This document shows, in pieces, positions 8,201-61,700 of a stretch of 64,000 nucleotides of DNA. The notes under the pieces are model-generated. The model saw only the letters and a program-made list of their open reading frames with translations, had not been told where the DNA came from and made no database searches. Location of the stretch: the NCBI GenBank assembly GCA_013265495.1, contig MU061814.1, positions 5,893,684-5,957,683 on the forward strand, written 5' to 3'. Numbering within the stretch: position 1 is the first letter of the stretch; every line of letters starts with the position of its first letter. The stretch is from Vicugna vicugna. Lineage: Eukaryota. The position numbers and the translations under genes are program-made.

Positions 8201-8841
8201 CCCCCTCCCCAGGTCTCACCCAGCCCGTGGCGGCAGCTCCAGTGTCTTGAGAACCCTTATCTGGGTGGGGAGTGAGCTGCTAAAGATCCCTGGCACTGGC
8301 CCTGTGCTGCCAGCAAAGCCAGCATTTGGCCTGGTGGGCAAGGGGCTCAGTACCCTGCAGAGCTGACTGGGCCTCTTCTCTCCAGGCCGCCTGGGCTCCA
8401 CTTCCAGTAACAGCTCCTGCGGAAGTGCAGAGTACCCTGGGGAAGCCATCCCCCACCACCCGGGTGAGTGGAGGTCCTGTTCCCGTCTGTCCCCAGGGGC
8501 CCTCTGGAAGGAGCCAGCTGCAGCATCCTGACTTCACTTTGCTTCCTTCAGGTCTCCCCAAAGCCGACCTGGGACACTGGTGGGCTAGCTTCTTTTTCGG
8601 GAAGTCCACTCTCCCATTCATGGCCACAGTGTTGGAGTCCCCAGAGCAGTGAGTCCACTTTCCTGGGGGGCAGTGACGGGGTGGGCAGGTGGAAGCAACC
8701 TCTGACCACACGCTCTCCCCCAGCTCGGAATCGCCCCAGACTTCCACCAGCGCGATCACCTGTGACCTGGTTCGGGAAGCCGTGGGGAAGCAGCAGCCTG
8801 GCAGCCAGCCTGGCAAAACCAACTCCAGGCCCCCGTCCTGA
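8126..8841 (+). CDS. PPDPF: Pancreatic progenitor cell differentiation and proliferation factor, 115 aa
   Basis: Coding exons 8126-8180, 8386-8463, 8552-8648, 8724-8841, all GT-AG, 348 nt. Translation MAAIPSSGSLVATHDYYRRRLGSTSSNSSCGSAEYPGEAIPHHPGLPKADLGHWWASFFFGKSTLPFMATVLESPEHSESPQ...NSRPPS matches PPDPF. Confidence 0.96.
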
Positions 8842-10674: not shown

Positions 10675-17075
<6,401 letters not shown>

Positions 17076-19538: not shown

Positions 19539-22500
19539 TCACGTGAGGGCGGGGTGGCGGCGCCTGCCAACGGCACCCAGCTTCTCCTGCAGGGTGGCGA
19601 AGTCCGGCCGCTCCTCAGGGCTCCGCTGCCAGCACTGCAGCATGAGCGCATAGACCTCGGCGGGGCAAGCAGCCGGGCGCGGCAGCCGGTACCCTCGCAT
19701 AATCTGCTGCAGAGTCTCCTGGTTGCTCATTCCTGGGGAGGGGGATGAGGGGCTGGGTGGGGGCTGCCTCGCCTCTGCCTGGGGTCACCGTGGAGACCTC
19801 CCCCCAGCCATCGGCCAGACCCTGCCAAGCAGGCAGCCTTGAGGCCTGGAGCCCCTTCCAGGGTCAGTGACCCCCGGGGCAGGGACACCTCTTGCTTCGG
19901 GCTGGCTCCCGCGCTTCCTCCCTCAGACTACGCCTCGCCTCTGGCCTTGAGGCCCACCTTCGTAGGGACACTGGCCGTAGGTGAAGACTTCATAGAGCAG
20001 AACTCCGAAGGACCAGACATCCGACTTCTGGGAGTACAGGCAGTAGTGGGCTGCCTCAGGCGCCGTCCACTTGACAGGGATCTTGGAGCCACTGCTCGGG
20101 GAGTAGATGTCGTCCTGGGTGAGGCAAGACCAGTCAGGCAGTGGGCAGAGTGGCACCCTCCCCTCCCAGCCGCTCGGCCGCCCCACCGTGGTCCACGGCC
20201 AGAGCTCACCCTGACCTTGAGCAGCCGGGCCAGGCCAAAGTCAGCCACCTTGCAGGCCAGGTCGTCGCCCACGAGCACGTTCCTGGCAGCCAGGTCCCGG
20301 TGCACGATGCGCCGCTCCTGCAGGAAGCTCATGCCCTCGGCCACCTGGCAGGCAAAGGTCAGCAGGAGAGGCGGGCTCAGGGCCTGGCCTTCGGGGCCTG
20401 CAGGCAGGGCCGACAGTCAGGGCGCAGGCATCTGCCTGTCACTTCCCTCCATGCGCCAGTCTAAGACGGGGCGGAACAGCACTGCCCACCGAGGCTGCTG
20501 AGGGCTCTGTGCTGCCGCAGTGACCCCACGGGCAGTGGCCACTTGGAGCAGGCGGCTCTGTGGCAGCCTGGCCTGGGTCAAGAAACGGACCAACATTGGG
20601 AGGGGGCGCCCAGGGCTGGGCGGGGCCCCCGCTGACATTGTCCAGGGCTGGTGACATGGAGGCCCGCCCCATCTGCATCCCACCCAGCCCAGAACACAGT
20701 GCCCAGACCCCAGCCCGACCTCGCACGTGGCCAGAGCCCACCACGGCCATCCGAGCCTCAGACGATCGAGCGTCCAGGATAGAGGCCTGGAGCGCAGTCA
20801 AAGGCAGGCACGAGCCCAGGCTGGAGTCCTCGTCCCCTCCGCAGACACTCACTACCCAGGAAGGCCTGCAGGCTGCCCCTGCGCATGAGCTCAGTGACGA
20901 TGTACACTGGCGCGCCCACGGAGCACACCGCATGCAGCCGGATGAGGCGCTGGTGCCTCAGGCTCTTGAGCGTCCGGATCTCCTGGGCGAGATCGGTGAG
21001 CTTCATGTCGGCTGCAGGACAGAGAAGAGCTCCAGGGCCCACCCCTCCCTCCCCTGACCCCCCACCCCAGGCTCCAGGGGCACCACCCCTCCCCCATGCT
21101 CTCCCACCCCAGGCTCTGGGGGGCCCCCGCTCCTCCCCTGTGCCCCCCCACCCCAGGCTCCGGGGGCCCCATCCACCTGGTTTGATGACCTTGATCGCCA
21201 CTGGCACAGAGCCCAGCCACAGGCCTTCCCACACCTCCCCAAAGTAGCCTTCGCCCAGCTTCCTCTGCAGGGTGAACTCAGAACGTGGCCGCTCCCACTC
21301 GTCCTGCTCGGGGGTGGGGGGCACTCAGCACCTCTGCACGTGGCTCCTGGGCAGAGTGGGCACTTCCTCCCAGGGTGCCAGGTCTCCCACCCTCTGCCCC
21401 TGCATCCCAGCTCAACCCTGGTCTTGGGTGGGGTAAGTGGCCCAGCTGCTGACCTCCCCAGGCTTGGCCCTAATTGCTTCCGGACCAAAGTGGCACCTTT
21501 GCTGGCGGTAGGCATCAGCTCACAAACACTCATCACCACCCGTCTTGGCTGTCATTAAGAGACCAGAGGAACCAGATCGCCGCCTGGCCCCTGGCAGGAC
21601 TGCTCGCCCAGGATGGTTGCAGAGACACTGTGGCCCCAGTGCAGGTGTGGCAGGGTCCCTCCCGCATCCCCCACAGCCTCCGCATTGGCCTGGGGCTGCT
21701 GTGGGCGCCTTCCCCAGACTTGTCCCTGCCCTCCTGGTGCTCTACTGCAGAGCTGGGCGGTGGGAGAGGGCACCCTACAGGCCTCTCTCCCTCTATGCCA
21801 GGGATCCCCTGAGATGGTGAGAGCAGACCCAGCCCCAGGGCAAGGCCCCAGCCAGAGTGTGGAGGAGGCAGTGGGACACCTGAGCAGCACCTGGCCCAGG
21901 CCAGGCCAGCCGGATGTGCTCCGGGCAGCATCTCAGGCCTGGCGAGGGGCAGCCTGGCAGGTGGGGGGTCAGTGGGCTTACCTGGGGCACACAGGGCTGG
22001 ATCAGCTGCCAGTGGACCTTGTAATAGGCCAGGAGCTCCTCCAGGCTGGGGAAGAGCTGGTCCTTCTGCAGGTAGAGGCTGCCGTCGGCTGCCATGGAGA
22101 TGCGGTAGTGGTGGACTTTGGCCTGGGCCCGGACTTGGGGGCACAGAGAAGGAGGCTGTGTCTTGGCTGCAGCCCGCCCTAGGCTGTCCCAGCACCCCAA
22201 CCAGATGACCCACCCAACCCTCCTCGGGGCCCGGCTCAGCCCCCGCCTTGCGGCCCTGAGATGACTGCAGCTGCGTGGAGGCCACAGGGGCAGTGGGAGG
22301 GCCGGGGGGTCCCTGCTGACAGTGTGCACAGAGCAGGTGCTCAGTGGATACTCGGGGGACAAACGAGTCCACATGTGGGTGGAGGAGCGGGGGAGCGGCA
22401 GGGTGAGTGAATCGAGGTGAAGGGACCAGTCCAGGGGTGAACGGGTGGGCAAGCACGTGAGTGAGTGGTGACGGGAGAATGGGTGAGTGTGTAAGTGAAG

Positions 22501-25500
22501 AAACACATGCGTGCGGGGGCGGGGGATGGGTTCGCCAGGCCCGTGGTGGCTTAGGGGCTGCCCTGCCTGGGCAGCAGCCACCCAACAGCCGGGGCAGTCA
22601 GCCTGGCGGGAGCTGGGCGCGGGGCCTCAGGGCAGGGACACGGTACCTGACAGCGAGAAGTCCCCATGGCTGCTCTCACTGGGCCGGACGAGGAAGGCGC
22701 CTGGCGCGTTGCCAGGGGACAGGAGCAGCTGCTGGGCCTCAGCCCGGCTGATGCCACTGAAGTACCAGCTGCAAAGGGTGAGCACAGCGGTCCTCACACA
22801 GGCCCCACGTGGGTCCGAGGCCCTGGAGGCCCACCCTGTGCAGATAGCAGAGCCGAGGCCCGAGGCCCTGCAGTCTCTCAGGGAGAAGATGCACACGGTA
22901 CCCGAGGCTGGTGGCCCAACCCAGGGTCTTGCACCTGCCCCAGCCCCCAGGGCTCAGCCTCTGGGGTCGTCAGGGACCAGATGGGAGGACCACTGGGCTG
23001 GCAGAGGAGTGACACAGCCACTAGCAGTGACCTGTGTCAGGTGACTGTCCACCACCTCAGCCATAGGCTCTCCTGCTCGTAAAATGACCATGAGCCCAGG
23101 CCACAGGCTTAACCCACCGAAGTCCAAGGCTGCAGAGTGGAGGACTGCAAAGGGAAGGGGTCCACCAGGGACCAGGGGGCCCTGATGAGCTGCCCCCTGT
23201 GTGGGAGGGGCTGCAGTTGTGGCAAGGAGGACCAGCGCACCACCCGGCTGGACGCAGCCCGCACACCTTGGGAGGCAGACAAGTGAAGTGAGAGAAACAG
23301 GACTCGCCCTGGAGTGGCTGGAGAGGCTGTGGAGAAGCTGGGGGAGGCCAGAAGCATCGCATGTCCGCCCCTGAGGGGCCGTGCCCAGCGCAGGCCCCCG
23401 CCCCCAGCCCTCTGCACACACAGAGGTGCTTCCTCTGTGAAGCCAGGTGTGCTGAGGTGGCTCTGAACACCAGGGCGGCAAGGGCTCCCAGGCACCCACT
23501 CCCCGGTCTGTGTAGGATGCTCAGACACCGGGAGCTCAGATACCTGAGCACAGAACAAGAGCAAGGGCCTGCCTGGGGCTCCCCCATCTGACACCCCATC
23601 CAGGCCGACTGGCTACCTAAGTGCAGCTCCCTGGTTCCACATTCTGGGGAGGAAAATGGAAAAGCCCCTAGCCCCACTCCATGGCCTGTGCCTGCTAGCC
23701 GAGGCCCAGAGTGGGGACCCCACCCCTGAATCAGCAGCTTCCTTCCTGGAGCCTCCTGCTTCTGGATGCCTGCCCCCCGGGGTAGGGGGCACTGCTGCCC
23801 AGGGACAGTTTGGAGAACACAGCCCCTCATCCATCCTGATGGGGGGACGGCAGAGGGATCTGGGGACTGTGGAGGTGGGGCAGCTCTCAGACCACTGTGG
23901 GGTGGGCAGAATCAGCAGGGACCCTGGAGGACCCAAAGCATGATTCAGTAAGTCAACACAAGGTGGGGGTGTCCCCAGACGAGGGGACGAGGTAAGCAAA
24001 GCTGGCTGTCCTGGGCAGGTGGGCACCGCTGGAGCCTGGGGTGAAGTTGGGGCCTGGTAGGACAGGAGCCTGTGCCCACCCTGGGGAGATATGGGGCTAG
24101 GCTGAGGCTGGAGGGAGCGGAAAGCTGGAGACAGGAAGAGGTAGGGCAATGGGGGCGGAGAGGCAGAGGCCTGGGTACATTAGGAGCTAAAATCAGCAGA
24201 CACAAGAGGAAGGGTTAAGAACTTGAGGACGTGGGACCACAGAGACCAGACCTGGCTGGGCAGCAGGCTCGGGGAAAGCCGACACATTTTTGGGTCACTT
24301 TGATTCGGGAGCAGGAGGTGCAGACGTGAGGCCGCTGGGCTTCGTCCACCAAGGGCCTCCACAGCCAGGCCTTGCCCTCCTTCCGGGGTCCTCAAGCCAG
24401 GAGAGCCTCCCCCACCGTGAAGGGGCTACAGGGGCCCTTCCCAGGCCTGCCGTGCTTCCCAGCCCCCAGCCCGCCCCGGACCCACAGCAGGGCCGGGAGC
24501 AGGCTGAGCCTCTGTGCACACCCGACTTCGGCGATGTTCTCAGAGTGGCTCCCCCTGCCCAGCTGACCCAGGGGCTAATGACACTGTGGGTGTAGTCAGC
24601 CCTTTCATCCCAGCAGAGGCAAACAGTCATTAGCTCTTCCTCCCAGCAGCCCCTCCCCTCCCCCCGGAACCCTACCATCACCTCCAGGAGCTGTTCATGG
24701 GATCTGTCCTCCACCTGGAGTGACTGTAGGCCCCTCCGCACCAGAATGGCTGGGCACGGTTGGGGCTAGAGTCCCCTCAGAAGGCACCTTCCTGTGATTC
24801 AGCCTTTCCCCCAGTTGCAAATCCCCCAGGAGACTGTGGGAGCACCGAGGGGCCCCAGGAGGCTGGAGGTAGCTGGAGTGAAGCTGAGAACGGATGCTGA
24901 TCGGCACAGGCCTAGCTTGGTGCGGGACCAGGGGCCCATGTCAGGGCGAGAACTGGGTGGTGGGCCTAGCTTTGCTAGCCCTGTCCACCAACCAGCTTCT
25001 GGCCTCTTCTCAGCCAGTACGTCACCCCTCTGCAGGCTGGGGCCGGGCAGAGGCATCTCCGCCCCGAGGGTTCTCTGGCCGGGGCCCCATCCGCCTGAAG
25101 TCAGGGATTACAGGGCCACGCATCCAGAGGAGACAGGTAGGGGCCACGCCCAGGCTTTGGGTCAAACGCTTGAGGCCCACGTACCATGTCCACAGCCATA
25201 TGGCGGGGCCGTGCTCAGAGCCGGCACACAGCTGTGCCAGGAGGCTACCCTGTCCTGAGTGCAGACCCTGACCCTGGGCAGAGAGGTCACCTCCTCTGAG
25301 GAGCCCTCTGGGAGAGTGCCCCACTCTGCTTCCCTCCATGATCACAGACTGGCATGCAAATAGCCAAGTGTCTGTGCCAGCCGCTCCCTTCCTGTGGACT
25401 GCCCTGGCCCCAGGGGCCTTGAGGACTCGGGGGAAATGGGCAGGTTCCCCCAGCTGTATCCACCCCCCCCCAAACAAGCCTCCTTGGGAGCAATCCCAAA

Positions 25501-26441
25501 GGCCAGGGCCATGCCTGCCCCAAAGCTAGCCCAGCACAGGAGGCGGGGGCACTGCGGGAAGGAGGACAGGTGAGAGGGGCAGGTGAATGCCTCTCTCTGA
25601 CCCACCTTATCACCCCTTCCACCCCGGGGTCACCACCTGACCCCTCACAGCATAAGGACGGCCTCTCCGCTGATTCATGTCCTCACTCTCAGTCAGAACT
25701 GCATCTGAGATCGTGGCCCCTGGCCCTCTAAGCAGTGGCCACTCAGCAAACACTGCTCAGTCCCTGTGTGAGAGCAGGAGGACCTGGCCAGCAGGGCAGG
25801 GCCCTAGAGTGACAACCATGCCGGGTGCCTGGCCAGCAGCACACACACACACCATGCAGCTGACCCCTGGCGCCACCTAGCCACTCCTGCCAGACGGCAT
25901 CCTTGCCACCTTCCCTCCCAGGGGTACCGGGCTCGGCTTGAGGTCACAGGCTGTCTGTGCCCCAAGCCTGTGTGCTTGTTCAGCTCCGAGGGGCAGGGCC
26001 TGGAGGCGTATCCCTGGACGGGCAGCCCCCCGACTCCATCCTGTGATTATTCCCGACTCCCCCGAGCGGTGGTACTCACGGTTGGTCCGAGAACGCCTCA
26101 GGGGTGACCCTGGTCACGCACGTGATGGGCACCAGCCCGGTTCTGGGCGGGCAGGAGAGCCTGCGGGCGAAGATGTAGCCGCCCTGCTCCCTGAGGGCGT
26201 AGAGCCTGTCCCCGCGGCCGACGCTCAGCTCCTCCGCGCTCCGCGCCCTGAACTCGCACAGCACCCTGAAGAGCTGCGCGGGCGCCGGGGGGCTGCAGGG
26301 CTCCGCGGAGGGGGGCTCCACCGCCGCGGGCTCAGGCTCGAGGTCAGCATCGGGGTCCAGGAACCCCGGCGCGCCCGCCGGCCAGATCTTGTCCCAGAAG
26401 AAGGACAGGAAGGTCAGCCGCTTCCTGAGGAAGGGCTCCAT
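19539..26441 (-). CDS. SRMS: Src-related kinase lacking C-terminal regulatory tyrosine and N-terminal myristylation sites, about 484 aa; in frame but with two short deletions
   Basis: Exons 26441-26080, 22768-22647, 22133-21982, 21303-21177 (acceptor inferred), 21011-20853, 20397-20216, 20114-19958, 19732-19539. [21 protein letters not shown] start, [33 protein letters not shown]. Confidence 0.92.
21060..21170. repeat. Imperfect tandem repeat of about 43 bp x3 in SRMS intron 4
   Basis: Core ccaccccaggctc at about 21062, 21104 and 21148. Confidence 0.7.
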
Positions 26442-29509: not shown

Positions 29510-30511
29510 ATGAATTTCCAGGTGACAGGCCTGGGCCTGGACAAAATGAAGCTGGACAGCCCCCAGTCCTTCCTGGACCAGGAGGAGGCAGAGGAGGCTG
29601 AGGACAGGCAGCTGCTGGAGCCCGAGGCCTGGCGGACCTACGTGGAGCGCCGCAACGCTCTGCGTGAGTTCCTGACCTCAGACCTGAGCCCCCAGTTGCT
29701 CAAGCGCCACCATGCCCGCATGGAGCTCCTCAGAAAGTGCTCCTACTACATCGAGATCCTCCCCAAGCCCCTGGCCCTGGGTGACCAGAACCCGCTGGTG
29801 CTGCCCAGTACCGTGTTCCAGCTCATCGACCCCTGGAAGTTCCAGCGCATGAAGAAGGTGGGCACAGCCCAGACCCAGATCCAGCTACTGCTGCTTGGGG
29901 ACCTGCTGGAGCAGCTGGACCACGGCCGCGCTGCGCTGGACTCCCTGCTTGAGTCGCCCGACCCTCGGCCCTTCCTGGCCGGCTGGGGGCTCGTGGAGCG
30001 GCGGCTGGCGGACCTGTCAGCCGTCATGGACAGCTTCCTGGCCATGATGGTGCCGGGGCGTCTGCACATCAAGCACCGCCTGGTGTCCGACGTTGGCGCC
30101 ACCAAGATCCCGCACATCCGGCTCATGTTGAGCACCAAGATGCCCGTCATGTTCGACCGCAAGGAGTCGGTGGCCTACCAGGACTGGGTCAGCCTGCGCT
30201 GGTTCGTCACCATCCAGCCAGCCGTGCCCGAGCAGTTTGAGCTGCGCTTCAAGCTGCTGGACCCACGGACACAGCAGGAGTGCCTGCAGTGCGGCATCAT
30301 CCCCGTGGCCGCCTGCACCTTCGACGTCCGGAACCTGCTGCCCAACCGCTCCTACAGGTTCACCGTCAAGCGGGCCGAGAGCTACACGCTGGTGTACGAG
30401 CCCTGGCGGGACAGCCTCACCCTGCAGACCAGGCCAGGGCCCCCCGAAGGGCCAGCCCCCAGTCGGCTGGGCAAGCCAGGCCTGCCCCTGACCACACCTT
30501 CCGAGAGATGA
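29510..30511 (+). CDS. FNDC11: Fibronectin type III domain-containing protein 11 (C20orf195), single coding exon, 333 aa
   Basis: Acceptor tcccag then [35 protein letters not shown]...[15 protein letters not shown]...[20 protein letters not shown] matches FNDC11. Stop TGA at 30509-30511. Confidence 0.96.
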
Positions 30512-32886: not shown

Positions 32887-35800
32887 TCAGGGAGAGTGTG
32901 ACTTCCCATAGACTTTCACCTCCGAGGCGGGGCCAGGCTCTGCTGGGCCTCACAGAGGTCCAGGAGTCAGGACCAGACCGGGCAGCAGCGCAGAAGGTGG
33001 TGGTCTCCTGCGAGGGGAAGCAGGAGTCAGAGGTAGCCCTGCCTGCAGGAGGAGCGGCCCCAGCCCTCCGTCCCTGACCAGCTCTCACCGATGACACAGA
33101 GCCCCTCCTGGGCCCGGGCGAGGGCCACGGTCACTTGGATGGGGTCCGCAATGATGCCCAGGGCGTTTTTCAGCCAGTTCTTAGTCGGTCGCGGGTCTAT
33201 GTCACTCTTGTCACAGGTGCGGACCATGCTCACTATAACATAGTGCCACTGGCTCCCTTGGAGGCGAGGCGAGTCTGGTGAGGCCCCTGCCACCCACCCA
33301 CCTGACCCCTCGCGCACAGGCCTCCCGCCTGGTGCCAGCCCCACCCTGACTCTTGGTGATGGAACACACGGTCACTCGTGGAACATCTTCCTGATGCTCA
33401 AGTCTCTTGCTGATCTCAGCCAGCTGGGCATTGTAGGGCGTGAGGATGGCAATGTTCTTGGGGCCCACTGTCCCCCTCAGAGGCAGCTCTCTGGCGATGC
33501 AGACCTGAGGGACCAGGGGTGCCGGTGAAGCCAGCCCTGATGTTTGTCCCACCCTGGGCTCCCTCAGCGACTCTGCCTCCTCCCCCAGGGAGCCCTCCCA
33601 AGCAAGGGGTACCAGGGAGGGCCCGGGGGAGGGCCGCCACCAATGCCATCTCCTCATCCTTTGCCTTGGAATCCTCACCCTCTTTGTCCGTAGACAGCAG
33701 CCGGCTCTTCTCTTTGCTCTGCAAGTGGCCAGAGATGACCGAGCAGCCCTTCTCATCAGCGTGGCCCAGGACACTGGGCGGCCTGCCCAGGCCCTGCCAG
33801 GTCTTCAGTTCCCTTTCGTAGAACTCCCCTGAGGGGAAGGCACAGATGCGCTCATGCTGGAAGGCAGGGACAGGAGTCAGGGCCAGGCTGGCCCTCGCCC
33901 ACCTTGGGCCCAAGAGCTCTGGGCACTCAGCATGTGGTACTGCACGTCCCACAGGCAGGCACCCCTGAAGTACCTCTGTCACAGATACCGGTCCAGCCCC
34001 AGCTTCTGCAGCAGCTCACTCTTGACCACAGGCCGCAGCTGCTTGTGGTCCCCGAGAAGGACCACCTGGGAGGACAGGCAGGCATGGTCCTGACCCCTCG
34101 GCCAGCAGCGCCCCACCCTGGAGCTGCCCACGTATTCCCTGCACCTCTGCACCCCCAGGGACACACGCCTGGGCTCTCAGCTCCTGCTTTACCCACCTTC
34201 TCAGCCTGGGAGAAGTTCACCAGGGGAATGAGGGTCTCTGGCTCCGAGGCCACACCCGCCTCATCCGCAAGGATCTGCCGGATGTCCAGGTCCCCAAGGC
34301 TGGCGGAGCCCGCATGCCAGCACGTGCACAGGACGGTGCAGTGCCGGTCAAGCTCGAATTTCTAAGCCTGCCCTAGGACTTTCCTGTACCTATGGGGACA
34401 CCATATGGTCGCCCAGGCTGCACCCCTGCACCCTAGGCCAGGAGGCAGCCCCATGGCTTCAGCTGCTTACCAGCTGAGGTCCTCCTTGGAGAAGATCTCC
34501 CCTTCCTGCAGCCGGGCACCGAGGCCCTGACGTCAGCCGCATGGGCGTTGGAAGACTGCCGGACCCGGTGATGCAGGGCGATGCTCCTGCGGCGGGTGGC
34601 AGTGAGAAGACCTGTGTGAAGCCGTGTTGGCTCCTGCCCGAGGCAGGGCCAGCTGGACAGCCCCCGCCCCTCGCCTCCACCCTGTATAGAACAACAGTGG
34701 AGAGGCTGCACCTGAGGGTCTGGCTGGGCCTCCCCACCTGAGGGGTCTTCTTAGGGGGCCCCTGCTGCCCACACCCGGCACTGGGCACTCAGTGGCCTCC
34801 TCCTGCTCCCTGTGCACGCGAAGGGGCTTCAGCTTTGCCCTCCTGCTCAGGAGAAGTGCTGGGGAAGCCAGGGTGTGAGTGACAGCTCCCGGACCCAGCT
34901 CCCCCGGGCAGAGCCCCTCCGGCTGCCCCGGTGCGCCTGCCAGCACGCCACCGACTGGTTGGAGGGGCTGCAGCACAAGATGGGGGCCCCCACAGCTGGC
35001 CACTGTGGGAGCCATAGGCTGGCACCTGCTCCTTGTTTGACGTGCAAAGCCAGTAGGCAGTGTGGACACCCAGCACCGTCTTCCCAGAGCCTGTGGGCAG
35101 AGCATGGGTTGAGCAGAGCCCCCACCTGCCTGCCTGGGCAGTCCCACAGCTCCCCCAAGGTGGGTCCCCCCTGGTGGGCCCCAGATGACCGTGAACTGCT
35201 TCTTCAGAGCCTCCCTAACGGCCTTGTTCTGGCTTGGGTTCAGCTTGTGATGGCCTCCAGGAATGTCGAAGGCTGGTCATCCAGGAAGCTGCTGGGGGTC
35301 CCTGAGGAAGGAGGCAGACCTCTGAGGACTGGCCGGGGCAGGGCCGGAGAGGTGAAGCTGAGGGCTCCCCATCCACCCACCTCTGTGGAGGGGCTGCTGG
35401 CTGGCCCTGGGCTATGCTGATGACCCACGGGGATGCACGCTTGAGCCAACGCACAGCTTCTTCTTGGCAGCTGGGGCAGGTGGGGGTGAAGATGGATACC
35501 AGACACCAGCAGGATCTTCCCGGGCAAGGAGCACTGCCCACGGGCCACCACCCCAGAAGGAGACGGGGGTTCCCAGCACACCCAGCCCACCCGCCAGCCT
35601 CTCCCCGGAAGCCACTCACAGGCCCCGGGCGGTGAAGCGGCCCCAGGCCTCAGCACCTCTTCCAGAACCACACCCATGGCCACGTGCTGAAGGAGGAAGG
35701 GCACCTGCTTAGGTGCGTCCCGCGGGTCGGCCCAGCCCTCCTTTGGGCTCCAGTCCTCCGCCAGCCCGGGTGTCACCCAGGTATGTGTGTCGGGGTCATT

Positions 35801-38800
35801 GTTTCGGACAGGGATGACGCAGCTGGCCGGGGGGCGTGGTGTGGCCAGCAGCCCTTCGAATCGGATGCACGGGTAGCAGTGGCCAAAGCTGATGTCAATG
35901 CCATGCTCCCGGAGGAAGGCGGGCTCCAGGCAGAAGGTGCCCTGCAGCTGCCCCTGGGGCGTCTGCTCCGCCCCACAGGGTATGGCCACATCCTGCAAAG
36001 TCACAGGATCGTTCTAAGCCTGGAGTCAGCGTGGGCAGCCGACTCCAGGCTTAGTCTTCCACGTCCTGGTGCCAGTCCCGACCCCCCTGGGGCACACAGG
36101 GCGAGAAGCCGTCCCCTGGCTGCTCCACGTGCTCCAGGCAAAGGCTGAGGTCAGGCGCCACAGACCACAGCTGCGGGACCGGCTCCAGGAGCCTACGCTA
36201 CAGGGCGGCACTGAGCTGGAGCTGTACGTGCAGTGTATCCCCACTACCAGCTCCCGGGCTGCCTCCACGAAGGGCCGCAGGCGCTCCACCTCGCCTGTCC
36301 CGGCTCCTGCTGCTGGGGCTCGAAGCTGGGCTCGCCCCACTGTCCACCCTCGGCTTCTTCATCAGCCTCAGCAGCTGCTGCCACTGGGTGGCGTCCACAG
36401 GCTGGACACATGGGTCAAGCGGGGTGCCGGGCAGTGGGGGGCACCGCCCACCGGCCTGCGTGGAGTAAGCGTGGTGCCGCCATAGGAGCTGCAGCTGCAG
36501 CCACTGGCCAGCCACAGGAGTGCCTGGCCGGCCGCAGGGGTGCGTAGCCGGCTGCAGGGGTGCTTGGGTGGCTGCAGGGAGCTGCAGTGCACGGGGTCGA
36601 GGTCCAGAAGGGTCTTGTGGCTGGCTGGGAAAAACAGCTTGAAGCAGGTGTCCTCCGCGGCCACCACAAAGCCCAGCTTGCTTTGCGGTTGGGTCTTGAG
36701 CCGGGTGGCCAGGTTCAGGCCGCGAGCCCAGCGCTGGAAGTTCTGGGCGCACCTGTACTGGCCACTGAAGTCCTGGCAGAGCTCGTCAATGTCTCCGGGC
36801 GTGCAGGGGGACCCTCCTTGGCCCAGTGCCAGCAGGATCTGCCGCTGCAGCACCACATCCAAGTACCTGCAAATGGGTGAGGTGGCCCAGGTGTACCTGT
36901 CCACCTGCAGCAGGTAGTGGCCATCCAGCTCCATGCCCTGGCGGCTGAAGACTGTGCGGCCTTGGGCCCTGCACAAGTCAAGGAGGGCAGGAGCCAGGCA
37001 AGGGTGCACATCGTCCGTGGCGATGAGATCCGCCAGTCAGATGAAGCCCTGGGCGTGGGCTGCAAGCTGGAGTTACCTCTAGACGGAGACCAGGACGTGG
37101 AGCTGCAGGTCTGGGGAGATGTAGGAGCTGAAGCTGCCCAGCCGGTGGTGGCAGAGGTGTGGGGACAATGGCACCCAGTCCTCCTGGTCCTGGCTCAGGG
37201 CTCGGAGCCAGCTGAAGCTGGGCTCGCGCTGCACCCGCAAGGGTGTGACCCCCTTTGTACCCTCACTGTCCACCAGGAATTTGGCCACCTGGCTGTTGAA
37301 CTGGACCATGTACTCCTCGACCATCCTGTGGGCCACGCGGAGGCCCAGCACGCTGTCCCCGTCAGCTGCTTGTAATGACCGTTGCCCCTGAGGCGGCGCT
37401 GGCGCAGCAGGCGGGAGAAGTAGCACGCGGCTGCCACGCAGGCGTGCACAGAGTCCAGGCAGGCTGGCAGCTTGAGGCCGGCGCCCCGGTGCCCCCGGTC
37501 ACCAGCTCCGCCTCTGTACGGGTCAGCTGGTGGTCAGAGCAGATCACAGCGGGTGCAGAGCACTCGCTCTTGAGCTGGCTGCTGCCCTTCTCGGTCGTCA
37601 GGAAGCGGGAGACGGCTAGGTGGTGCTGGCCTGGCAGGAGGCTGGCTGGCAGCATGGACCCTGCTCCTGGTCAGGGGCGTAGATGGTGGTCCCCCCCGCC
37701 TGCAGGCCTCCAGGCCCAGCGCCCTCATCCCTGGGCATGCAGCTGACCATGTCAGCGATGTGCGTGGCCACCTCATACATGGGGCCCCGGTCCTGGGCGC
37801 TGATGGCGCCGTCCAGGTTGCAGGTGAGCGGGGGTCCACGGCGAAGGCCAGGAAGCTGCTGCAGCCCTCCAGGCAGCTGGGCGCCCGGCTGAGCTCAGCG
37901 TGGTGCCTGTGCAGCGCCTCCGCGGACCGAGGCCGGGTGTGGGGAGGCTCCTTCAGCCTGCAGGCCAGGTCCAAGATTTGGAGACTGCTCCCAGGTGGTG
38001 GCCTCGGGCAGCACCTTTAGGACGCCCAGTGGGTAGTAGAAGTGCTCCCACCACAGAAGGACACACACCCAGAAGAGGCGGCAGTGCCGGGCCTCCACCG
38101 AGAGCGGCTCGTGCCCCACGCGCTGCACGCGGCCCTGCAGAAGGTGGTGGACAGGCACCTGCAGTGGGTCCTGCAGCCCAGCCACGAAGACCTTGGTGGC
38201 ACAGCCATTGACGGGGGTCATGACGCAGGGGTCCCACTCGTCCACATGGCACACGAACGCCAGCTGGCGATGCTCCCTCTGATGAATGCTCAGCACGCAG
38301 CCCTGAGGCCACCCGGCCCAGCTGAGGACCTGCACCAGCGCCTCGTCCCCAGGGAATGCCATCCCGCAGTGCAGGCGGCCCTTGAGCTGGTTGGGCCCAA
38401 ACTTCCCATCGTCCAGCGGACGCTCTCACCTCCCGGAGGCTCTCTCGCAGGAAGGCGCAGCGGCAGTGCTGCTGGGGCCACTTGTGGAGAAGTTTCTGCT
38501 GTTTGGCTTCCGGCAGGTTCACATACTGCCACGCCGGCTGGGGAGACAAGGGCCGGGCGAAGCTGTCCAGCAGCCCATCCTCCTGGACGGTCACTGTCAC
38601 GTCCCGGGGGTGGTCCAGGAGCTGCTGCGGGCGGGGCTCGTTGCTGCCGAGCTCCCTGTCAGAAGGCCAAAAGCCCACAGGGCCCTCGGGCTCCCTGATC
38701 TCTGGGGCTGACGGTCCTGCCACAGCGCCTCTGGGGACCATGCCCCTCCCACATGTGCTGTGGCCCACCCCCCACTACCCCCTCCTCTGGAACAGTGTCC

Positions 38801-41800
38801 TTGGCATCTGCTGCCACAAACCTTTCTGTTTCTTGGGCCGCAGGCTGCCAGCAGCTGGCCCAGCTCTGCTTCTGGATCTGCTCCAGCGACAGGCCCTCGG
38901 GGCAGACGGCGCCGTGCTCCACACACTCACGGAGGAAGCTCCCCCAGAGCTTGCTGCAAGCCTTCAGGGAGCAGAGGGCCACAGCGTCGCCCACGCCGCC
39001 ACCTGGGCCTGCGTGTGGGTCGTGACGGTGCTGAGCACGCGGGCGTCCGTGAAGCACCCTGGGGCCGGTGCCCCCGGCTCAGCAGGCTGCGGGTGGTGTG
39101 CAGCGCGCCCAGCACCACCACCCGGAAGTCCCGCCTGAGAGGGGGGCAGTTACAGGGTCAGGCTGGGCCAGAAGAGGGAGAGGAAGGGAGGGGGAGGGGA
39201 CAGGAGGGGAGGGGAGGGGCCCCGCTTCCCCCAGCACCGATCACCCACCTGGCAGATTCTCAAAGCTGCCCACAGACACCTGGCCCAGGTCCCTCTTCCT
39301 CAGCTCCTGCCTCAGCGCACTCACTGGAGACACACCACCAGGTCAGGTGAGGGGCCCCAATGAGGCATAGCGTCCCCTGCCAAGGACAGGACCCTGGCTC
39401 CCAGGTCCTGGGAGGTGAGTATCTGAATATCTCAGACCCTCGTATGGAAGGAAAGCAGACAGAGGAGGCCTACCAGGCCACAGGCGGAGGGAGGCTTCCC
39501 CGGGAAACGGGGCTTGGGGGAAGCTGCCCTGGGCAGCAGGGTCTCACCTGGGCCCTGTGGGACACAACGCGGTGCTCCTCTGCTCCCGGTGGCCCCAGCA
39601 CTGGGGCCAGGAGTTACAGACCTCCTGTACCTTCTCGACAACCTGAAGAACCTCGGCTGCATTCAGCCAAGACGTCGTGGAGACGTCGCACTGGAGCTGC
39701 CCACCACGCAGCAGAACTGGAGCGGGTACCACCGGGGTGGCCAGGGATCTTGCCGCTGGCCTGGATGGAGCGGCCGCTGGCTAGGGAGACGTGGTCGGAG
39801 ACAAAGCAGACAACGGTCTGGGTGGAGCAGTAATTCTTGTACAAAATAATGCAGCTCCTCTGGGCGACCTGGAGTGTTTGCTGCCAGTGGTGCTCGAAGA
39901 GGCGGTGCAGCAGCATGTCTGGCCCCCGGGCGCCCTACCACACTGAAGAGCCGGGGCGTGCCCTGCACGTGGTTGCCCGCCAGCACCACTCGGGTGCCGG
40001 GCGCAGCGTAACGCAGCGGGGTGAGCGTCTCCCACTCCAGCATCTGGGAGGCCTGGTCAATGAGGATGTGGGAAAAGAAGCCAATGGGCACCCCGAGCTC
40101 GTGTGTCTGGGAGGTGCTGGCCAACACAATGTGGTGCCGCTCCATGTCGGCAGGCGAAAGGCCTGGTGGTCCTCGGTCAGGCAGCAGTACCTCAGCGTGG
40201 CCGCGTCCGTCAGGCTGGGCGGGCAGTCCGTGTGCACCACCCAGAGGGGAGCGGCCTCAGGGTGACTGCTGCTGACGTAGGGGCGGAAATACTCCACAGT
40301 GTAGGTGTCAGCCGCCCTGTGGTGGAGAAGGGCACAGCGCCTGTCTGCTAAAGTGCCTCCCGTGCGCCCCCCCTGCCCAGACAACAGGCAGTCCGACCCT
40401 GCAGCAGAGGGGACAGACAGAGAAGCAGGAGGTCAGTGCCCGATGAGAACCAGACAGCAGCAGAGCCCTGGGGAGGGCGCAGCATGGGCCGGGCCACCAG
40501 GGCGGCCCGAGACTGGGTTGACCCTGAGCAGCCAGGGAGCAGCAAGACCTGGCACCACCTCTCCGAAGGAGACAGGACCACCAGCTAGGGCCTCTGCCTG
40601 ACACGGGCCCCTGGAGCCCCAGTCCTGTAACCAGTCAGCCCTGGCAGAGATGGGGAGCCCCGTGCTGGAGCAGCTGTCCATCTGGGGGGAACTATGACAG
40701 GATTTTCAGAACACCCAAGTCTCGCCCCAGGAAATGCTGGGGTGGGGGTCAAGCCACAACCCTACCCACCACTCTGCCTGGCCCATGTTCCTCTGTGGAC
40801 AGGAGACCATGCACCGGGCTTGAAGCACAGGCGTCCCCTGTCCTCAGCCCTGTACTGACTGTCAGGGAGACTCTCAAGTGGCTGGGACTGGCCCCAGGGG
40901 CTTCACTGCCACCAGCCCAGCCCCCACCCTCTCCTGGAACTAGCCGCTGAGATCTCCAGTGAACCTGGGAACCAGCCCGAACCCCAGACCCCCAGGTCCC
41001 TCCTCTTCTCCTGGGGCGAGGCCGGGGAGCGGGTAGAGCAGCCCAGCGGCCCCAGCTCACCTGTTGGTTCGCGTACAGAGGAGCACCTTACGAGGGGCTG
41101 GCAGGCGACCTCCAGGGAGGCCATGGCCAGCGTGTAGGTCTTGCCCGTGCCAGAGGGGCCACAGACGAGCAGAGGGGCAACAGGCTGCCCCTACCCCAGG
41201 GCTGGTCCCTGTGATGACCGCCACAGCCTGCTTCTGCCTGCGGTTGCCCTGCAGTGTGGGTGAGACAGGCCCAGGGCAGGGCAGGGTGCAGGCTGACAGG
41301 TCAGGAACCACCAGGCCCTCCTCTGGCAGTGCGTCCACTGCCCGGTGCCAGAGGTGGAAGGGCAGCAGATCAATCTGGAACTGCACTTCCAAGATGGGGC
41401 GCCCAGGCTTGGGCTGTAGCCCCAGGGCCGCGCAACAGTGGGCAGGCAGCAGCAGCCACAGCACCTGCCCCGAGTTGGGCCGCGTCTCCACCCGCACCCC
41501 GCACACCCTGGGATCAGGCCCAGGCACGGGGGCCACGAGCGCCTTCTCAGCAGAAAGCCCTCGTCCACGTCAGGCATCGAGGAGGGGATGGGGGTCTCAG
41601 TGTACAGGGCTCCCCGTGGCGGCAAGAGTGCGTCCAGGACTGACGTCTCCTGTGCTGTCCGACAGTTCAGCCTAGGGGGAGAACATGGGTCGGCTGACCA
41701 GGCCCGCGGTGCTGCAGCGGGCACCAGGCAGCCCCTGCCCCCGCCGGCCCCACTCACTTGGCCACCGGGTGTCGCTGAGCAGCCTCCTCCTCACACAGAG

Positions 41801-44248
41801 CCCAGTGCAGCTGCTGCCGGGGCCGGTGGGAAAGATGGGGCCCTGGTCAGGGGACTCCAGGGCTGGAGCAGGCCCCGTGGACTTGGCCACCTGGGCACCG
41901 CCATCCCCTCCAAGCCAGGCACCACGTGGCGGTTGCCTGTGTTCCAGCGGTCCGGCTCCTCAGGGAGGTGGCCAGGTGGGCGGCGCCCAGGGCCCCGGAA
42001 GTGCTCCCAGCCCGCCTGCAACTCCAGCTTCCTAAGCAGCACCGGCCGGCAGCCAAAATCAAAGACCACCCATTGCTCGAAGGTGCCTGGGGAAGCGCTC
42101 TGCCCGAGCACCCCACCCGGAACATGGCCAGACAGCCGGGCACGCAGAAGTGCTCTCTCTGGGCAAAGACCCGGCCTGTTGAGAGGCTGGGGGCCACCGT
42201 GAGAAGTCTGCTCCGAGGTCTTGCTTGAGCAGGGCTACACATCGCAGGGGCTCTTGGGGCAGAAGATGGATGGTGAGGTGGCCCCTGGAATCCACCCTGC
42301 CCATCAAGGTCCAGGCTGCAGCACTGACCCCTCCCTTCCCTCCTGGCTGTGACCCCAGCAGGGCCCTTGGCCTCTTTGAACCATGAGGCTTCCTCTGCAA
42401 GATGGGGTCACTGAGCCAGCCTGGATAGCCATTGTGGCCCAGGTGATGGGGGCAGTGTGGGGCGCTCAGTGGGGACCAGCCCAGCACTCCCTCTCTGCAC
42501 CAACCCCAGCGGGAGACACAGGCTTGCTTCAGATCCCAGACTCAGGAGAGGCTGCCCAGGGCAGAGCTCCGGACCCCAGACCCCAGCTGCCCCCTGACTG
42601 TGCAGCTGCTCACCTCAGAATAGATGTTGAAGGTCCAGGCGTGCGCCGCCTGCCGTTCCCAAGTCCACCGCACCAGGGGCCGCTTGCAGCCGACAGATAC
42701 ATGGTCAAGGGTCTCGGCCAACTGCCCAGGAAGCCAGGGGTCAGCAGGGCAACCCTGGGTCAGCTCTGCCCCCATTCTCACAGCCCCCACTTACCACCAG
42801 TACCTCACCGGCACTGTCCTGGCACTCAGCCAGCAGCTTCTCGCAGTGAGACCCCAGCCCATCCTGCCAGGCCGCTGACCACCTCAGCTTCACGGTCCAG
42901 AATTCTGGGTCCACTCCTGCAGCTCTTGCTTTGCACCTTGTTTCAGAAGTCCCCGAACTCACAGAGGCTGGGCCTGGCGGGAGCGGGGGTGATCAGCAGG
43001 CCACACGGGGGTGAGGGCCCTCAGCCCAACACTGACCCATCCATGTTGGGGAGCAAAGCTGATACCAGGCAGAGGGCAGGGAGCACCCCCATCCCACCCA
43101 CTGCTGCACACCCAGAACCCGGCAGGAGTGGCCTCCGTGGACCCCCCTTCTCCACCCCTCAGAGGCCACACAGAAGACAGGGAATCCTGGTTCCAGCTGA
43201 AGGGGGTTCATCCCCCATCCCCAAACCCCGCTTTCCTGTCCTTACCGCAGGCAGAGCTCCAGAGGGGCGAGCCCAGTAGGCAGGCTGTGGTGCTTCAAGG
43301 GCACGACTAGTTTCGATTCCAGTATCTGTGCATGCTCCAAGGAGGAGCAGTGGTTCTCGGAGGCCTCCTGGGAGTGGCAGGTGACAGGCAGGCATGGCAG
43401 TCCAGCTGGACTCTGGGGCGCTGCCCATAGGGGGCTGTGTGCCCATCCCCACTGAGGGCAAGGGCCGTGAGCAGGCCCTTCCGACCGAGCTGGGCCTCCC
43501 ACACAGGCACCTCCACAGTGTTGTGATCACAGCGGCGGCGGGACATGCCGTGCCGGCACCAACACCCTCGCTACACGCATTCGCAGTAGGCCAGGGGCTG
43601 GTGGCCCCAGACACCTACCTGCACCACCAGGACTTGTTTTCGACAGCCCCCCGTGCTCACATGAGCCAGGAGAGTGGGGCAGTTCCCATGATCGGGGCAC
43701 CAGCCTTGGGGCTCCACTGGACAGATGCGCGGGGGGCGGCGCTGGAAGCAGGGAGAGCGGAGTGTCTGGAAGGGGCCACCAAACTCCGCGAGGATGGCAT
43801 CAGCCGGGGCCAGCGGCTTCCCCTGGGCCGCGCCGCTCTGCGCCCCCACCTTCACCCACAGGTGGCCGACGTTGTGCTCGAGCTCAAAGGGCCAGACTAG
43901 CGCCCCCTCGGGGCTCCTGGCGAAGGTGCACCGGTTGCCGTGGCGCCTGCAGCCAAGCCCCGGGCTGTAGTAGCGGCAGACCTCACCGTGCACAGGCTGC
44001 GGGAAGCTGGGCGGGCAGTCCACCTTGCGCTAGACACTGCTCTCGGAGGCTCTCTTCAGGCGGGCCAGCAGGATGTCCCAGGCACAGCTGTGCTCCACCC
44101 TGCTCTGCAGACAGGTGCTCTCACTGAGATGTGGGGTGCAGCAGGAGCAGGCCAGACACAGGTCCACCAGGGCGCACAGGCTGGCCAGGGACGGCTCCTG
44201 GGTGGCCTTGGGGCTGGTGGGCTGTGTGCCGGACCCTGGCAACTCCAT
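32887..44248 (-). pseudogene. HELZ2: Unitary HELZ2 (helicase with zinc finger 2 / PRIC285) pseudogene, intron-containing, at the syntenic locus
   Basis: HELZ2 peptides are recognisable across shifting frames: SLASLCALVDLCL, EVCRYYSPGLGCRRHGNRCTFARS, TFEQWVVFDFG, GPSGTGKT, HILIDQASQ, MAFPGDEALVQ, TSPICRYLDVVLQRQILLALG, WGPPG/SGKT, DEAG, TPYNAQ, ARAQEGLCVIG. In-frame stops at 44030, 43571, 42943, 36014, 34362, 33979 and 32967, plus many frameshifts and broken splice sites. Confidence 0.95.
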
Positions 44249-58787: not shown

Positions 58788-61700
58788 CTACTTGTGCTCG
58801 TGGCCCTCTGCCATGGCGGCCACCTCGATGGTGGCTGTGTGCTCCTCGGGCCCCGGGGCGGCCACGGCACTCTCCATTGCCCCCGTGGGCACTGTCACGA
58901 TGGTGCTGCCCCCGGGTGACACCTGGGCCACGTTCTGCAGGGTGGGGCCCAGGCCGGGCAAGGTGAGCAGCTGCAGAGGGCTCACAACCTTGACCACAGT
59001 GCTGCCATCCTGCATGGCGGCCGTACTCAGGACCGTGAGGCTGGAGGCGTCCGGGTGAATCTCCACCGTGTTGGGGAAGGTGGTGCCTGAAGAGGCCAGT
59101 ACCGTGTAGCCCCCCAGCAGCGGCGAGGCGGGGGAGCCGGCCGGAGCAGCCTGGGGGGCAGCCTTGCCCAGCACGGGGGAGGGCAGGGTGGACACCACTT
59201 TGCCCAGGGGCACGCCGGCAAGCTGGGAGACGGGCACGCCCGGGGTCAAGGCGATAGGAGCAGACTGGGCAAGCACCTGCGAGGCGATGGCAGCCGGCCC
59301 AGACGTGGCCCTTGCAAGCCGGGGCCGCTTCACTGGGGGTGGCAGGGAGACGGGCGTCAGCGTCATGAGCACGTTGCTGAGGTGCTGGGACTTGTGCTTG
59401 AGCTCCTTGGCGCGGCGGCGGTGCTCGTCACACTGCTGCTCCAGGGCTGCGGGGACAGGGCGCGGAGTGACTGTGGGGAGAGGGGTGGGGGCGTGACTGG
59501 GGGGACGCGGACAGGGACAGGGTGCAGGCGTGATCACGGGGCCAGGGTGTCCTGGGGGGCAGCAGACCACACACAACCTGCCCTGACCAGGCCTGTGCGG
59601 ACTTGGTGTCTGACCGCCCCATCCCTACGGTGACACCCTGTCCTGTCCCCGCAATTCCCCTGCAGTGACGCTCTCTGAGGGCCAGTCTGATGGGGACCTG
59701 CCGCTCCACGGAAGCGTGAATGCGTCTGAGGCAGCACCTGCCAGCTGCCCGGCGTGGGGACAGCCTTCCCTGTCCTCTGTAATGCCTTCTGCCCTCCTAA
59801 TGTCTGTGTGGGAAGCTGCTCTCATGACGTGTTAAGACACGGAGATCACGACAGACACGTAACCTGCCTGCCTCACACACACCCACAGGCGTGTCCCCAG
59901 TTAGGCGCCCCAGGAGCAGGGAGGGAGGCACAGTCTTGCGGGTGAGCCGTGGGGCTGCAATGCATCCAGGGGTGGTCTGGCGAGGGTCGTCACGGTGTCA
60001 GCAAGCCGGGTGCCCCCAAAGCCCCCTTGGGAAGAGTGCTCCCATGCAGCGGTGCAAGGGCCCGCAGGGGAGACCAGCATACCTGCCAGGTCGCGGGCGT
60101 ACTGCTCCCGCGAGCGGTCCATCTGGCACTTGTGGCTGGCCAGCACCTTCTTCACCAGATCCAGCATGCCGAAGTTCTGCACGATGTTGTTGAGAAGGAC
60201 GGCGTCTGGTGGGGGGTGGGGGGTGCACACGGTAAGGACGCCGCCTGCAGCCGGCCTGGGGGGCACCGCGCAGCCCCGAGGCAAGGAAGGGCCTGGGGGG
60301 CGTGGGTTACCTGCCCCCCACCCCCCACCCCCCAAGCTGAGGTGGCTGGGCTCAGCTCTGAGCCGGGAGGAACAGGCTGCAACCATGGGCCCCCCACCCC
60401 GCGCAGAGCAGACACGGCCCCTCACCTCGGAGCTGCAAGGGAGGGTCCTGGACCCGCTGTTGCAGGCCCTTCATGGTCTCCAGCAGCTCCTGCTGGAACT
60501 CCTGGATGACCTCGTCCAGCAGGCCAGCATCCTTGAGCCCTCGCCAGAAGGCAAACGTGTCATCTGTGAGAGAAGGAGGGGCTCAGAGACGGGGGCCTGT
60601 ACCGGCAGCCCCCCGCAGGCTCAACCCCAGGGAGGAACAGAGAGCCGTCTGGAGGACGAAGCTCTGCGGGCAGCAGTGTCCCCGTGATGACAGGCGGGAG
60701 TCCGGTGGGTCGGCCAGGCGGGAGACGGCATTGAGCACGCCTCCAGACACTAGGACAGTTGCCAGTGCCCGGCCCCGGGCAGAGACCCCACAGGCCCGTG
60801 CCTCCACCGGGAGGGCTCTGCACGGCCTTGCCCCGGGGCCCTCCACCGAGAGAAGCTGCAGGAAGGGCCCCGTACCTCCGATGGCCGTGGTCCAGTCCCC
60901 AGGGTCCTCACAGGTCTCTATGGTGATGGTAGCGGGAGACCCGTTCACTGCAACCAAGACGGGACGGCGTGAGCCTCTCTTGCGATGGGCCGGCATCCCC
61001 CTCACTGCACCCCAGCTCGAGACTCTCCTTCATCCCATTTTCACAAAACTGCCGGACGTGCACGAGCGCGACAGAGGACTCACGTGCCTCGGGTTCTGGG
61101 CTCCCCCTTAGGCACACAGAGGAGCAGGCACGCCCCAACCCGCCAGTCTCCTCAACGCCCCGCCGCTCCTGTCATGCCGACAAGGAGCTGCTGCACCCGC
61201 CAGCCGGGGCCACAGGGTGGCCTTCCTGCCCAACCTGCTCTCAGGCCTGCGGCCTGGGGCCCTTTGCATCTGCCTCACCGACACCATCGTCCATTGGGGC
61301 CACTACCACGCTTCCATTTTTGTAAAGCCCCAGAAGTGGGACGTGGACCGCTGTATGCCACCCAGAGATTCACCTCTGACCCCGTCTCTGGCGTCTGCAG
61401 AGCCCTGGACACGGTTCGGATTTGGACACTTGGGGCTTAGAAATAAGCCCAGCAACACAATGTCCAGGTAGACTTTTTGGCCTCTCCCACAGCTGACGGC
61501 GGTCCTGCCAGGGGAGGCCAGATGCTGGGAGTAACTCTCCTAGTTTGGGCTCACAGGGAACCTTCACGCTACAAGTGAGTCTGCGTTCTGAGGACCCCAG
61601 CTGAAGAAACCACCACGTGGGTGAGTTTAAGAAAAGCAACAGACTCGTCCAAACCATCGCGGGATCACAGGGTTCAAAGAGCTAAATCCCAAACCCTCTA

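What the first reader, a model, noticed from the sequence alone, without database searches (positions are those of the whole stretch)
32887..44248. Loss of HELZ2, an interferon-induced antiviral and anti-LINE-1 helicase-exoribonuclease, apparently in a camelid
The syntenic, intron-containing gene has at least 7 in-frame stops that I located (44030, 43571, 42943, 36014, 34362, 33979, 32967) and roughly 20 or more frame switches between recognisable HELZ2 peptides. Flanking PPDPF, PTK6, FNDC11 and GMEB2 have none, so poor sequence quality is unlikely. The lesion density implies an old loss. HELZ2 is an ISG with two SF1 helicase domains and an RNB domain, reported to restrict L1, affect viral infection and coactivate PPARs. 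Its loss would be a lineage-specific change in innate immunity and lipid regulation, relevant if this is a camelid (MERS-CoV hosts). I cannot confirm whether the loss is already published.
Basis: partly seen in the sequence, partly recalled or inferred. Interest (0 to 1): 0.85.

Follow-up and report, generated by a model that had tools for sequence, protein, structure and literature searches.

The report
Dead antiviral HELZ2 gene in camelids
In this camelid genome the interferon-induced antiviral gene HELZ2 sits in its normal place but is broken by over 30 frameshifts and 9 stop codons, with no second copy found, and damage shared with two Old World camels means it was likely lost in the ancestor of all camels and llamas.

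Summary
Confirmed, and stronger than first reported. The syntenic 19-exon HELZ2 (minus strand, 44248 to about 32900) carries 32 frameshifts seen in 6 of 6 alignments, 9 stops seen in 5 of 5, and 5 of 18 non-canonical splice sites. Five flanking genes (1,770 codons) are open. Independent DNA runs hold 95% of its 31-mers, too many for assembly error. No second copy was found. Dromedary and wild-camel protein fragments share lesions with it, including a change at the arginine whose mutation kills the human RNase, so the loss likely predates the camel-llama split. The genome is probably a South American camelid (inferred). New lead: no ruminant or whale HELZ2 among 120 listed homologues, no HELZ2 row for cow or sheep in a 10-species interferon table, and pig HELZ2 is open but fast-evolving. 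Ten paper searches found no report of the loss; automated gene-loss tables were not searchable. The scan had not noted HELZ2 loss before. A new member of a known kind.

The parts
32900..44248 (-). HELZ2 unitary pseudogene, 19 coding-exon remnants (3' end approximate; alignment reaches 32928)
43246..44248 (-). Exon 1: ATG at 44248-44246, first stop after 72 codons (TAG 44032-44030), second TAG 43573-43571, frameshift near 43387; zinc-finger region
39548..42973 (-). Exons 2-6: helicase 1 region; 14 robust frameshifts; Walker B reads DQAS where intact proteins read DEAA; intron 3 acceptor reads AA instead of AG at 42254
35620..39134 (-). Large exon 8 (OB fold and RNB nuclease): 12 robust frameshifts, stops at 37081, 37075, 37039, 36200; frameshift inside the catalytic aspartate motif near 37827 and fourth Asp changed to Gly
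36869..36871 (-). Arg to Cys at the position equal to human R1923; Arg in 85 of 85 mammals that have the column; Cys in the window, dromedary and wild camel
36290..36375 (-). Frameshift near 36323; the wild-camel fragment passes from off-frame into HELZ2 frame here with no gap against the window, so it shares the shift
36504..36579 (.). 20-bp tandem repeat (3.8 copies) inside exon 8 at a frameshift; the camel fragments align with gaps here
36014..36054 (.). 17-nt inverted repeat with 7-nt loop replacing about 9 codons; both camel fragments have the ordinary sequence here, so it is private to this lineage
32900..35470 (-). Exons 9-19: helicase 2 region; 5 robust frameshifts, stops at 34364, 33981, 32969; donors read GG (35171), GC (34936), CT (33930), GC (33637)
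29510..30511 (+). FNDC11, open 333 aa (synteny and quality control)
19542..26441 (-). SRMS, open 484 aa, 8 exons (control)
10675..17075 (-). PTK6, open 449 aa, 8 exons (control)
8126..8841 (+). PPDPF, open 115 aa, 4 exons (control)
58788..62949 (-). GMEB2, last five coding exons, open 389 aa (control; name from recall, no Pfam hit in these exons)

Best explanation
This is the single HELZ2 locus found in this camelid genome; it is broken in every domain and cannot encode the helicase-nuclease, and it likely died on the camelid stem, before camels and llamas split, then decayed without selection. Shown: lesions, synteny, open neighbours, no second copy in the assembly. Inferred: any transcript would stop after 72 codons and would be a target of nonsense-mediated decay; the longest lesion-free run is 209 codons, so no domain set survives. 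Inferred: selection relaxed first in early artiodactyls (long pig and stem branches), most likely because other interferon-induced RNA helicases and nucleases cover the role, and the gene was then lost. Camelids would therefore mount an interferon response without HELZ2-dependent unwinding and 3'-5' decay of structured viral and LINE-1 RNA.
For: 32 of 40 frameshifts robust, 9 stops in 5 of 5 alignments, longest clean run 209 codons; 5 of 18 splice junctions non-canonical; 196 of 876 near-invariant residues changed against a median of 1.3% in 84 placentals; no frameshift in 1,770 control codons; 19 of 24 listed runs hold 0.87-0.99 of the words, 0.95 in two studies other than the possible source, while the frameshift sites alone span 12% of the words; one locus only in four own-genome searches, the two weak extra hits being other RNB genes at 42-44% over about 65 aa; camel annotations are 542- and 312-aa patchworks with off-frame and intron-derived peptides; at near-invariant columns covered by the dromedary fragment 11 changes are shared with the window, 1 is window-only, 1 camel-only, 2 differ in both; camelid stem branch 0.38 against crown 0.05-0.06.
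Against: 33 of 40 frameshifts are net minus one base (p 0.002 against an assumed 60%) and 11 of 40 lie near runs of four or more bases against 13% background, which is also the pattern of long-read error, so a few could be errors. The camel evidence is from predicted proteins covering 437 and 240 codons, not DNA. An alpaca study lists HELZ2 p.Cys1440* (PMC10873959), so an annotation treats the alpaca gene as coding. The reason for the loss (redundancy) is untested.
Confidence: 0.93

Rival explanations
1. The lesions are assembly errors in a GC-rich region and the animal has an intact gene.
For: Excess of net minus-one frameshifts and mild homopolymer enrichment; an alpaca annotation numbers at least 1,440 codons.
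Against: Equally GC-rich neighbours are open; independent runs hold 0.95 of the words, so at least about 58% of frameshift-spanning words are present even if every missing word fell on a lesion; the assembly holds many open 1,293-codon LINE-1 frames; 9 stops and 22% loss of invariant residues are substitutions, not indels; camels share lesions.
Confidence: 0.01
2. This is a decayed duplicate, and a working HELZ2 lies elsewhere or in an unassembled part.
For: An earlier scan note reports many decayed partial duplicates in this genome (e1-8043701, unchecked); the assembly has 12,405 contigs; one search ran with a stricter first look.
Against: Gene order PPDPF-PTK6-SRMS-FNDC11-HELZ2-GMEB2 is the ancestral one (order recalled from human); four searches with N-terminal, RNB and helicase-2 pieces give this locus only; no full-length camelid protein among 120 listed hits of a search seeded with the window's own exon 1.
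Confidence: 0.02
3. Camels and South American camelids lost the gene separately after their split.
For: Several lesions are private: dromedary has Trp at two of the window's stops, both camels lack the inverted-repeat lesion, and the wild camel leaves the frame near 35833 where the window stays in frame.
Against: Shared R1923-equivalent change, shared frameshift near 36323, dromedary reading Leu across the window's CT donor at 33930, and a stem branch about six times the crown branches.
Confidence: 0.04
4. On the cause: the loss was adaptive, through fat and leptin metabolism or through removing a factor that some viruses use, rather than passive.
For: [quoted passage not shown] The lineages that may lack it are foregut fermenters or their descendants (recalled).
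Against: No test here separates adaptive from passive loss; the event is too old for sweep signals; pig shows relaxed constraint without loss, which fits gradual dispensability.
Confidence: 0.2

Closest known systems
HELZ2 (PRIC285/PDIP1) of other mammals, e.g. pig P0093, white rhino P0022; human enzyme in PMC10516660, PMC9839780, PMC5316548
   Same: Same locus, 19-exon layout, zinc fingers + helicase 1 + OB/RNB + helicase 2 remnants, 59-62% identity over about 2,730 codons; sister to pig in the tree.
   Different: No open frame; stops and frameshifts in every domain; Walker B of helicase 1, an RNB aspartate and the R1923-equivalent arginine changed; five splice sites altered.
Lineage-specific losses of interferon-stimulated genes in mammals: XAF1 in cats, IFIT3 deletion and IFIT2 pseudogene in whales (PMC5747502, passage); Mx in toothed whales, PYHIN genes in bats, cGAS/STING and IFIH1 in pangolins (recalled)
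   Same: An otherwise conserved, strongly interferon-induced gene left as a unitary pseudogene in one mammalian lineage.
   Different: HELZ2 is a very large effector enzyme with added metabolic roles; I found no report of its loss in any vertebrate (PMC10516660 notes absence only in lineages such as insects); the sister lineage (pig) shows an intermediate, fast-evolving state.

Membership tests
HELZ2 orthologue (locus) | Synteny between FNDC11 and GMEB2 | tested here: met
   Neighbours found in order; the human order is recalled.
HELZ2 orthologue (locus) | Full-length colinear similarity and tree position with artiodactyl HELZ2 | tested here: met
   groups with camels and pig at support 1.0.
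Functional HELZ2 | Open frame of about 2,900 codons | tested here: not met
   First stop after 72 codons; longest clean run 209 codons.
Functional HELZ2 | RNB and helicase catalytic motifs | tested here: not met
   Frameshift in the aspartate motif, fourth Asp to Gly, R1923-equivalent to Cys, helicase-1 Walker B Glu to Gln. The third Asp (D1601-equivalent) and helicase-2 DEAG are kept.
Unitary pseudogene | Several independent disabling mutations at the ancestral, intron-bearing locus | tested here: met
Unitary pseudogene | No working copy elsewhere in the genome | tested here: met
   limited to this assembly.
Unitary pseudogene | Lesions present in other individuals, not sequencing error | tested here: met
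   Word-share argument over 19 runs of 2 organisms; not checked lesion by lesion.
Unitary pseudogene | Loss of purifying selection | tested here: met
   22% of near-invariant residues changed against median 1.3%; protein level only, no dN/dS.
Unitary pseudogene | No functional transcript or protein | not testable with these tools
   No RNA holder listed, which is no evidence either way.
Processed pseudogene | Introns absent, new location | tested here: not met
   18 introns kept at the syntenic place.
Duplicated pseudogene | Intact parent copy in the same genome | tested here: not met

The most novel reading that the evidence does not exclude
HELZ2 has been lost across most even-toed ungulates and whales: constraint relaxed in their common ancestor, the gene died separately in camelids and in the ruminant-whale line, and only pigs keep an open but fast-evolving copy. 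Cattle, sheep, camels and whales would then be natural knockouts of an otherwise universal vertebrate interferon effector that restricts LINE-1 and RNA viruses.
Probability: 0.5. Interest if true: 0.78.

Novelty: new member of a known kind. Interest (0 to 1): 0.6.

Why it matters
HELZ2 is induced by interferon in 7 of 7 non-artiodactyl species of a 10-species table, chicken included (log2 change 3.2-6.6; PMC5747502 data file), so an old, complete loss shows that a whole mammal family lives without it. Camelids host MERS-CoV and serve as infection and nanobody models (recalled); they would be natural knockouts in which HELZ2's roles against viral RNA, LINE-1 and in fat metabolism can be tested by adding the gene back to cultured cells. 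It also corrects annotation: a 'stop gained' in alpaca HELZ2 was listed as a high-impact variant (PMC10873959), which is likely meaningless in a dead gene. If the loss extends to ruminants and whales it concerns most livestock.

Tried and rejected
Sequencing error, duplicate-with-parent and processed-pseudogene readings were tested and rejected (see rivals). Read-level confirmation was not obtained, so single lesions and their sharing with other species are open at DNA level. Exact look-up of the window's FNDC11 found no record, so no species name was obtained. The ESM Atlas returned HELZ2 clusters without recorded taxa, no help on range. An IQ-TREE run timed out; the tree is FastTree on 29 rows chosen by me from 86 mammals plus the window and two camel fragments. 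Eight of the 40 profile frameshifts were not counted as robust (42252, 38766, 37984, 37726, 37695, 36053, 35641, 35397); 42252 is better read as a lost acceptor. The idea that HELZ2 was lost because LINE-1 died out was rejected: this genome has young LINE-1, and megabats, where LINE-1 is extinct (PMC5203782 passages), keep long HELZ2 proteins (P0010, P0319). Supplements searched for HELZ2 with no hit: PMC12462620 (1 file), PMC6386725 (9 files), PMC6760925 (3 files), PMC11821529 (1 file), PMC5865188 (3 files); some large tables of these papers may not be held.
Full report
What is there. The window holds, in order, PPDPF, PTK6, SRMS, FNDC11, a HELZ2-like sequence on the minus strand and the 3' part of GMEB2 (gene names and the human order are from recall, supported by Pfam hits for all but GMEB2). 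A 222-aa frame from the RNB region found a dromedary protein named HELZ2 as best hit (91% over 58% of the query). A second search gave 120 listed of 151 long homologues, of which 86 mammalian sequences were aligned.

Lesions. I wrote a splice- and frameshift-aware protein-to-DNA aligner. Pig, rhino, raccoon dog, a bat and a primate HELZ2 each align over 2,714-2,756 codons at 59-62% identity with 35-38 frameshifts. A profile alignment gives 40; 32 of these 40 recur in all five single-reference runs, 12 of them inside the one large exon where no intron can explain them. Nine stops occur in 5 of 5 runs and one in 4 of 5. The ATG at 44248 is followed by a stop after 72 codons. Of 18 introns at the aligned places, 5 have a non-canonical end: one AA acceptor, and GG, CT and two GC donors (GC donors can work). 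Helicase-1 Walker B reads DQAS, the RNB aspartate motif has a frameshift and its fourth Asp is Gly. The longest lesion-free run is 209 codons.

Is it error? The concern is real: 33 of 40 shifts are net minus one base and 11 of 40 lie near homopolymer runs. Four things speak against error as the explanation. The five neighbours, at similar GC, need no frameshift in 1,770 codons where about 25 would be expected. Of 24 listed runs, 19 from two organisms and 8 studies hold 0.87-0.99 of the sampled 31-mers of 34300-44299; leaving out the possible source and its study, runs of two other studies hold 0.95, whereas the frameshift sites span 12% of the words and frameshifts plus stops 14%. The assembly holds many open 1,293-codon frames (about 59 of the 150 scored have 1,285 or more, counted by eye). 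And 196 of 876 near-invariant residues are changed, against a leave-one-out median of 1.3% and a maximum of 5% in 84 other placentals.

Another copy? Searches of the own genome with the RNB piece, an intact 981-aa rodent-like protein, an exon-1 piece and a helicase-2 piece returned this locus only. One search used a stricter first look; its two weak extra hits are RNB exons of other genes, by look DIS3L2- and DIS3L-like (names from recall).

Which animal, and when. The two closest records are a 542-aa dromedary model and a 312-aa Camelus ferus model. Both are patchworks that skip most of the gene and include off-frame or intron-derived peptides. They are 91.5% (400 of 437) and 89.2% (214 of 240) identical to the window in HELZ2-frame codons and much closer to each other, so the window is most likely a South American camelid; the species was not determined. 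Shared damage: (i) Arg to Cys in the SPIRR motif, Arg in 85 of 85 mammals with that column; by numbering on the orangutan protein (Ser 1673 + 247 = 1920) this is human R1923, whose change to Leu abolished RNA degradation (PMC10516660, section 27); (ii) the wild-camel model crosses the frameshift near 36323 without a gap against the window; (iii) the dromedary model reads Leu through the window's CT donor at 33930, where GT would give Val. At near-invariant columns the dromedary shares 11 changes with the window, against 1 window-only, 1 camel-only and 2 different in both; two of the 11 columns are also changed in pig. Private damage exists on both sides. In a FastTree tree the camelid stem is 0.38 long, crown branches 0.05-0.06, pig 0.25, the artiodactyl stem 0.10, and horse and rhino lie 0.13-0.14 from the same ancestor from which the window lies 0.54. 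A crude neutral estimate gives 0.11 substitutions per site since the loss against 0.019 per lineage since the tribes split. With recalled dates (tribes about 16-17 million years, camelid line about 60-65) most decay falls on the stem, so the loss was likely early, over 30 million years ago; CpG decay and the short camel fragments make this rough.

How it works. Shown: the locus cannot make HELZ2. From the literature, the human protein is an interferon-induced 3'-5' exoribonuclease whose helicases unwind structured RNA (PMC10516660: abstract, introduction, section 27 and passages read), lowers LINE-1 RNA through its 5'UTR (PMC9839780: abstract and outline only) and mediates interferon action on dengue virus (PMC5316548: abstract and outline only); knockout mice resist diet-induced obesity and fatty liver (PMC10516660 introduction). 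Inferred: camelids lack this arm. I favour relaxed selection through redundancy as the cause, because pig already shows an intermediate state; an adaptive cause is not excluded.

A wider lead. A search seeded with pig HELZ2 plus the window's exon 1 listed 120 of 232 hits, down to birds at 44-46% identity; the only artiodactyl among them is pig (same, 120 of 151). None of the unnamed sequences I placed joins the pig-window clade. [quoted passage not shown] As control, MOV10 is named in all ten species and ZNFX1 in nine, pig being the unnamed one, so the pig blank can be a naming gap, while cow and sheep name both. Nine papers hold 'HELZ2' and 'cattle', none on cattle by title; none holds 'HELZ2' and 'cetacean'. 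Pig HELZ2 is open with its catalytic motifs but differs at 95 of 910 near-invariant columns, the same in 7 pig records, and 24 of those changes are identical in the window. Against: 112 and 31 hits were not shown; none of the roughly 300 proteins fetched contains X, so corrected models may be filtered from the collection; the word filter can miss sequences; I saw no ruminant or whale DNA. I put this at even odds.

LINE-1. The genome has 15,061 first-look candidates for reverse transcriptase. Four copies fetched are LINE-1 with open ORF2 in 4 of 4 and open ORF1 in 3 of 4, 98.3-99.5% identical. So the loss did not follow LINE-1 extinction. Three of five mammals called LINE-1 'hyperactive' in PMC5203782 (passages) are minke whale, antelope and sheep, but that paper also lists five cetartiodactyls as extinction candidates; no causal link is claimed.

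Novelty. Ten searches (listings and abstract starts seen) and five gene-loss supplements gave no report of HELZ2 loss in camelids or other vertebrates. Subscription papers and genome-wide TOGA tables were not searchable, and the loss may be recorded there without comment. The only camelid mention found treats the alpaca gene as coding (PMC10873959, passages).

Verdict. A real, old unitary pseudogene of a conserved interferon effector: a new member of a known kind, interest 0.6, rising to about 0.78 if the loss extends to ruminants and whales.

Noticed in passing
G000, e.g. L004-L007: A large young LINE-1 family: about 59 of 150 scored reverse-transcriptase hits lie in open frames of 1,285 codons or more; four copies are 98.3-99.5% identical.
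   Followed up: partly
P0093 and six other pig records: Pig HELZ2 differs at 10.4% of near-invariant columns, about eight times the placental median, while keeping catalytic motifs; it has Asp at the second RNB position where most placentals have Asn.
   Followed up: partly
window 34300-43400: 33 of 40 frameshifts are net minus one base, more than a usual indel spectrum would give; if real, a strong single-base deletion bias in this GC-rich region.
   Followed up: partly
window 36014-36054: A 17-nt inverted repeat replaces about 9 codons, as a template-switch mutation would; absent from both camel fragments.
   Followed up: partly
window 46944: An ISRE-like GAAA-N-GAAA site about 2.7 kb upstream of the HELZ2 ATG; could be a remnant of the interferon-responsive promoter; chance not assessed.
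   Followed up: no
window 30918-31414: 15-bp tandem repeat downstream of FNDC11 containing the window's only gap of 338 N.
   Followed up: no
   Followed up: no
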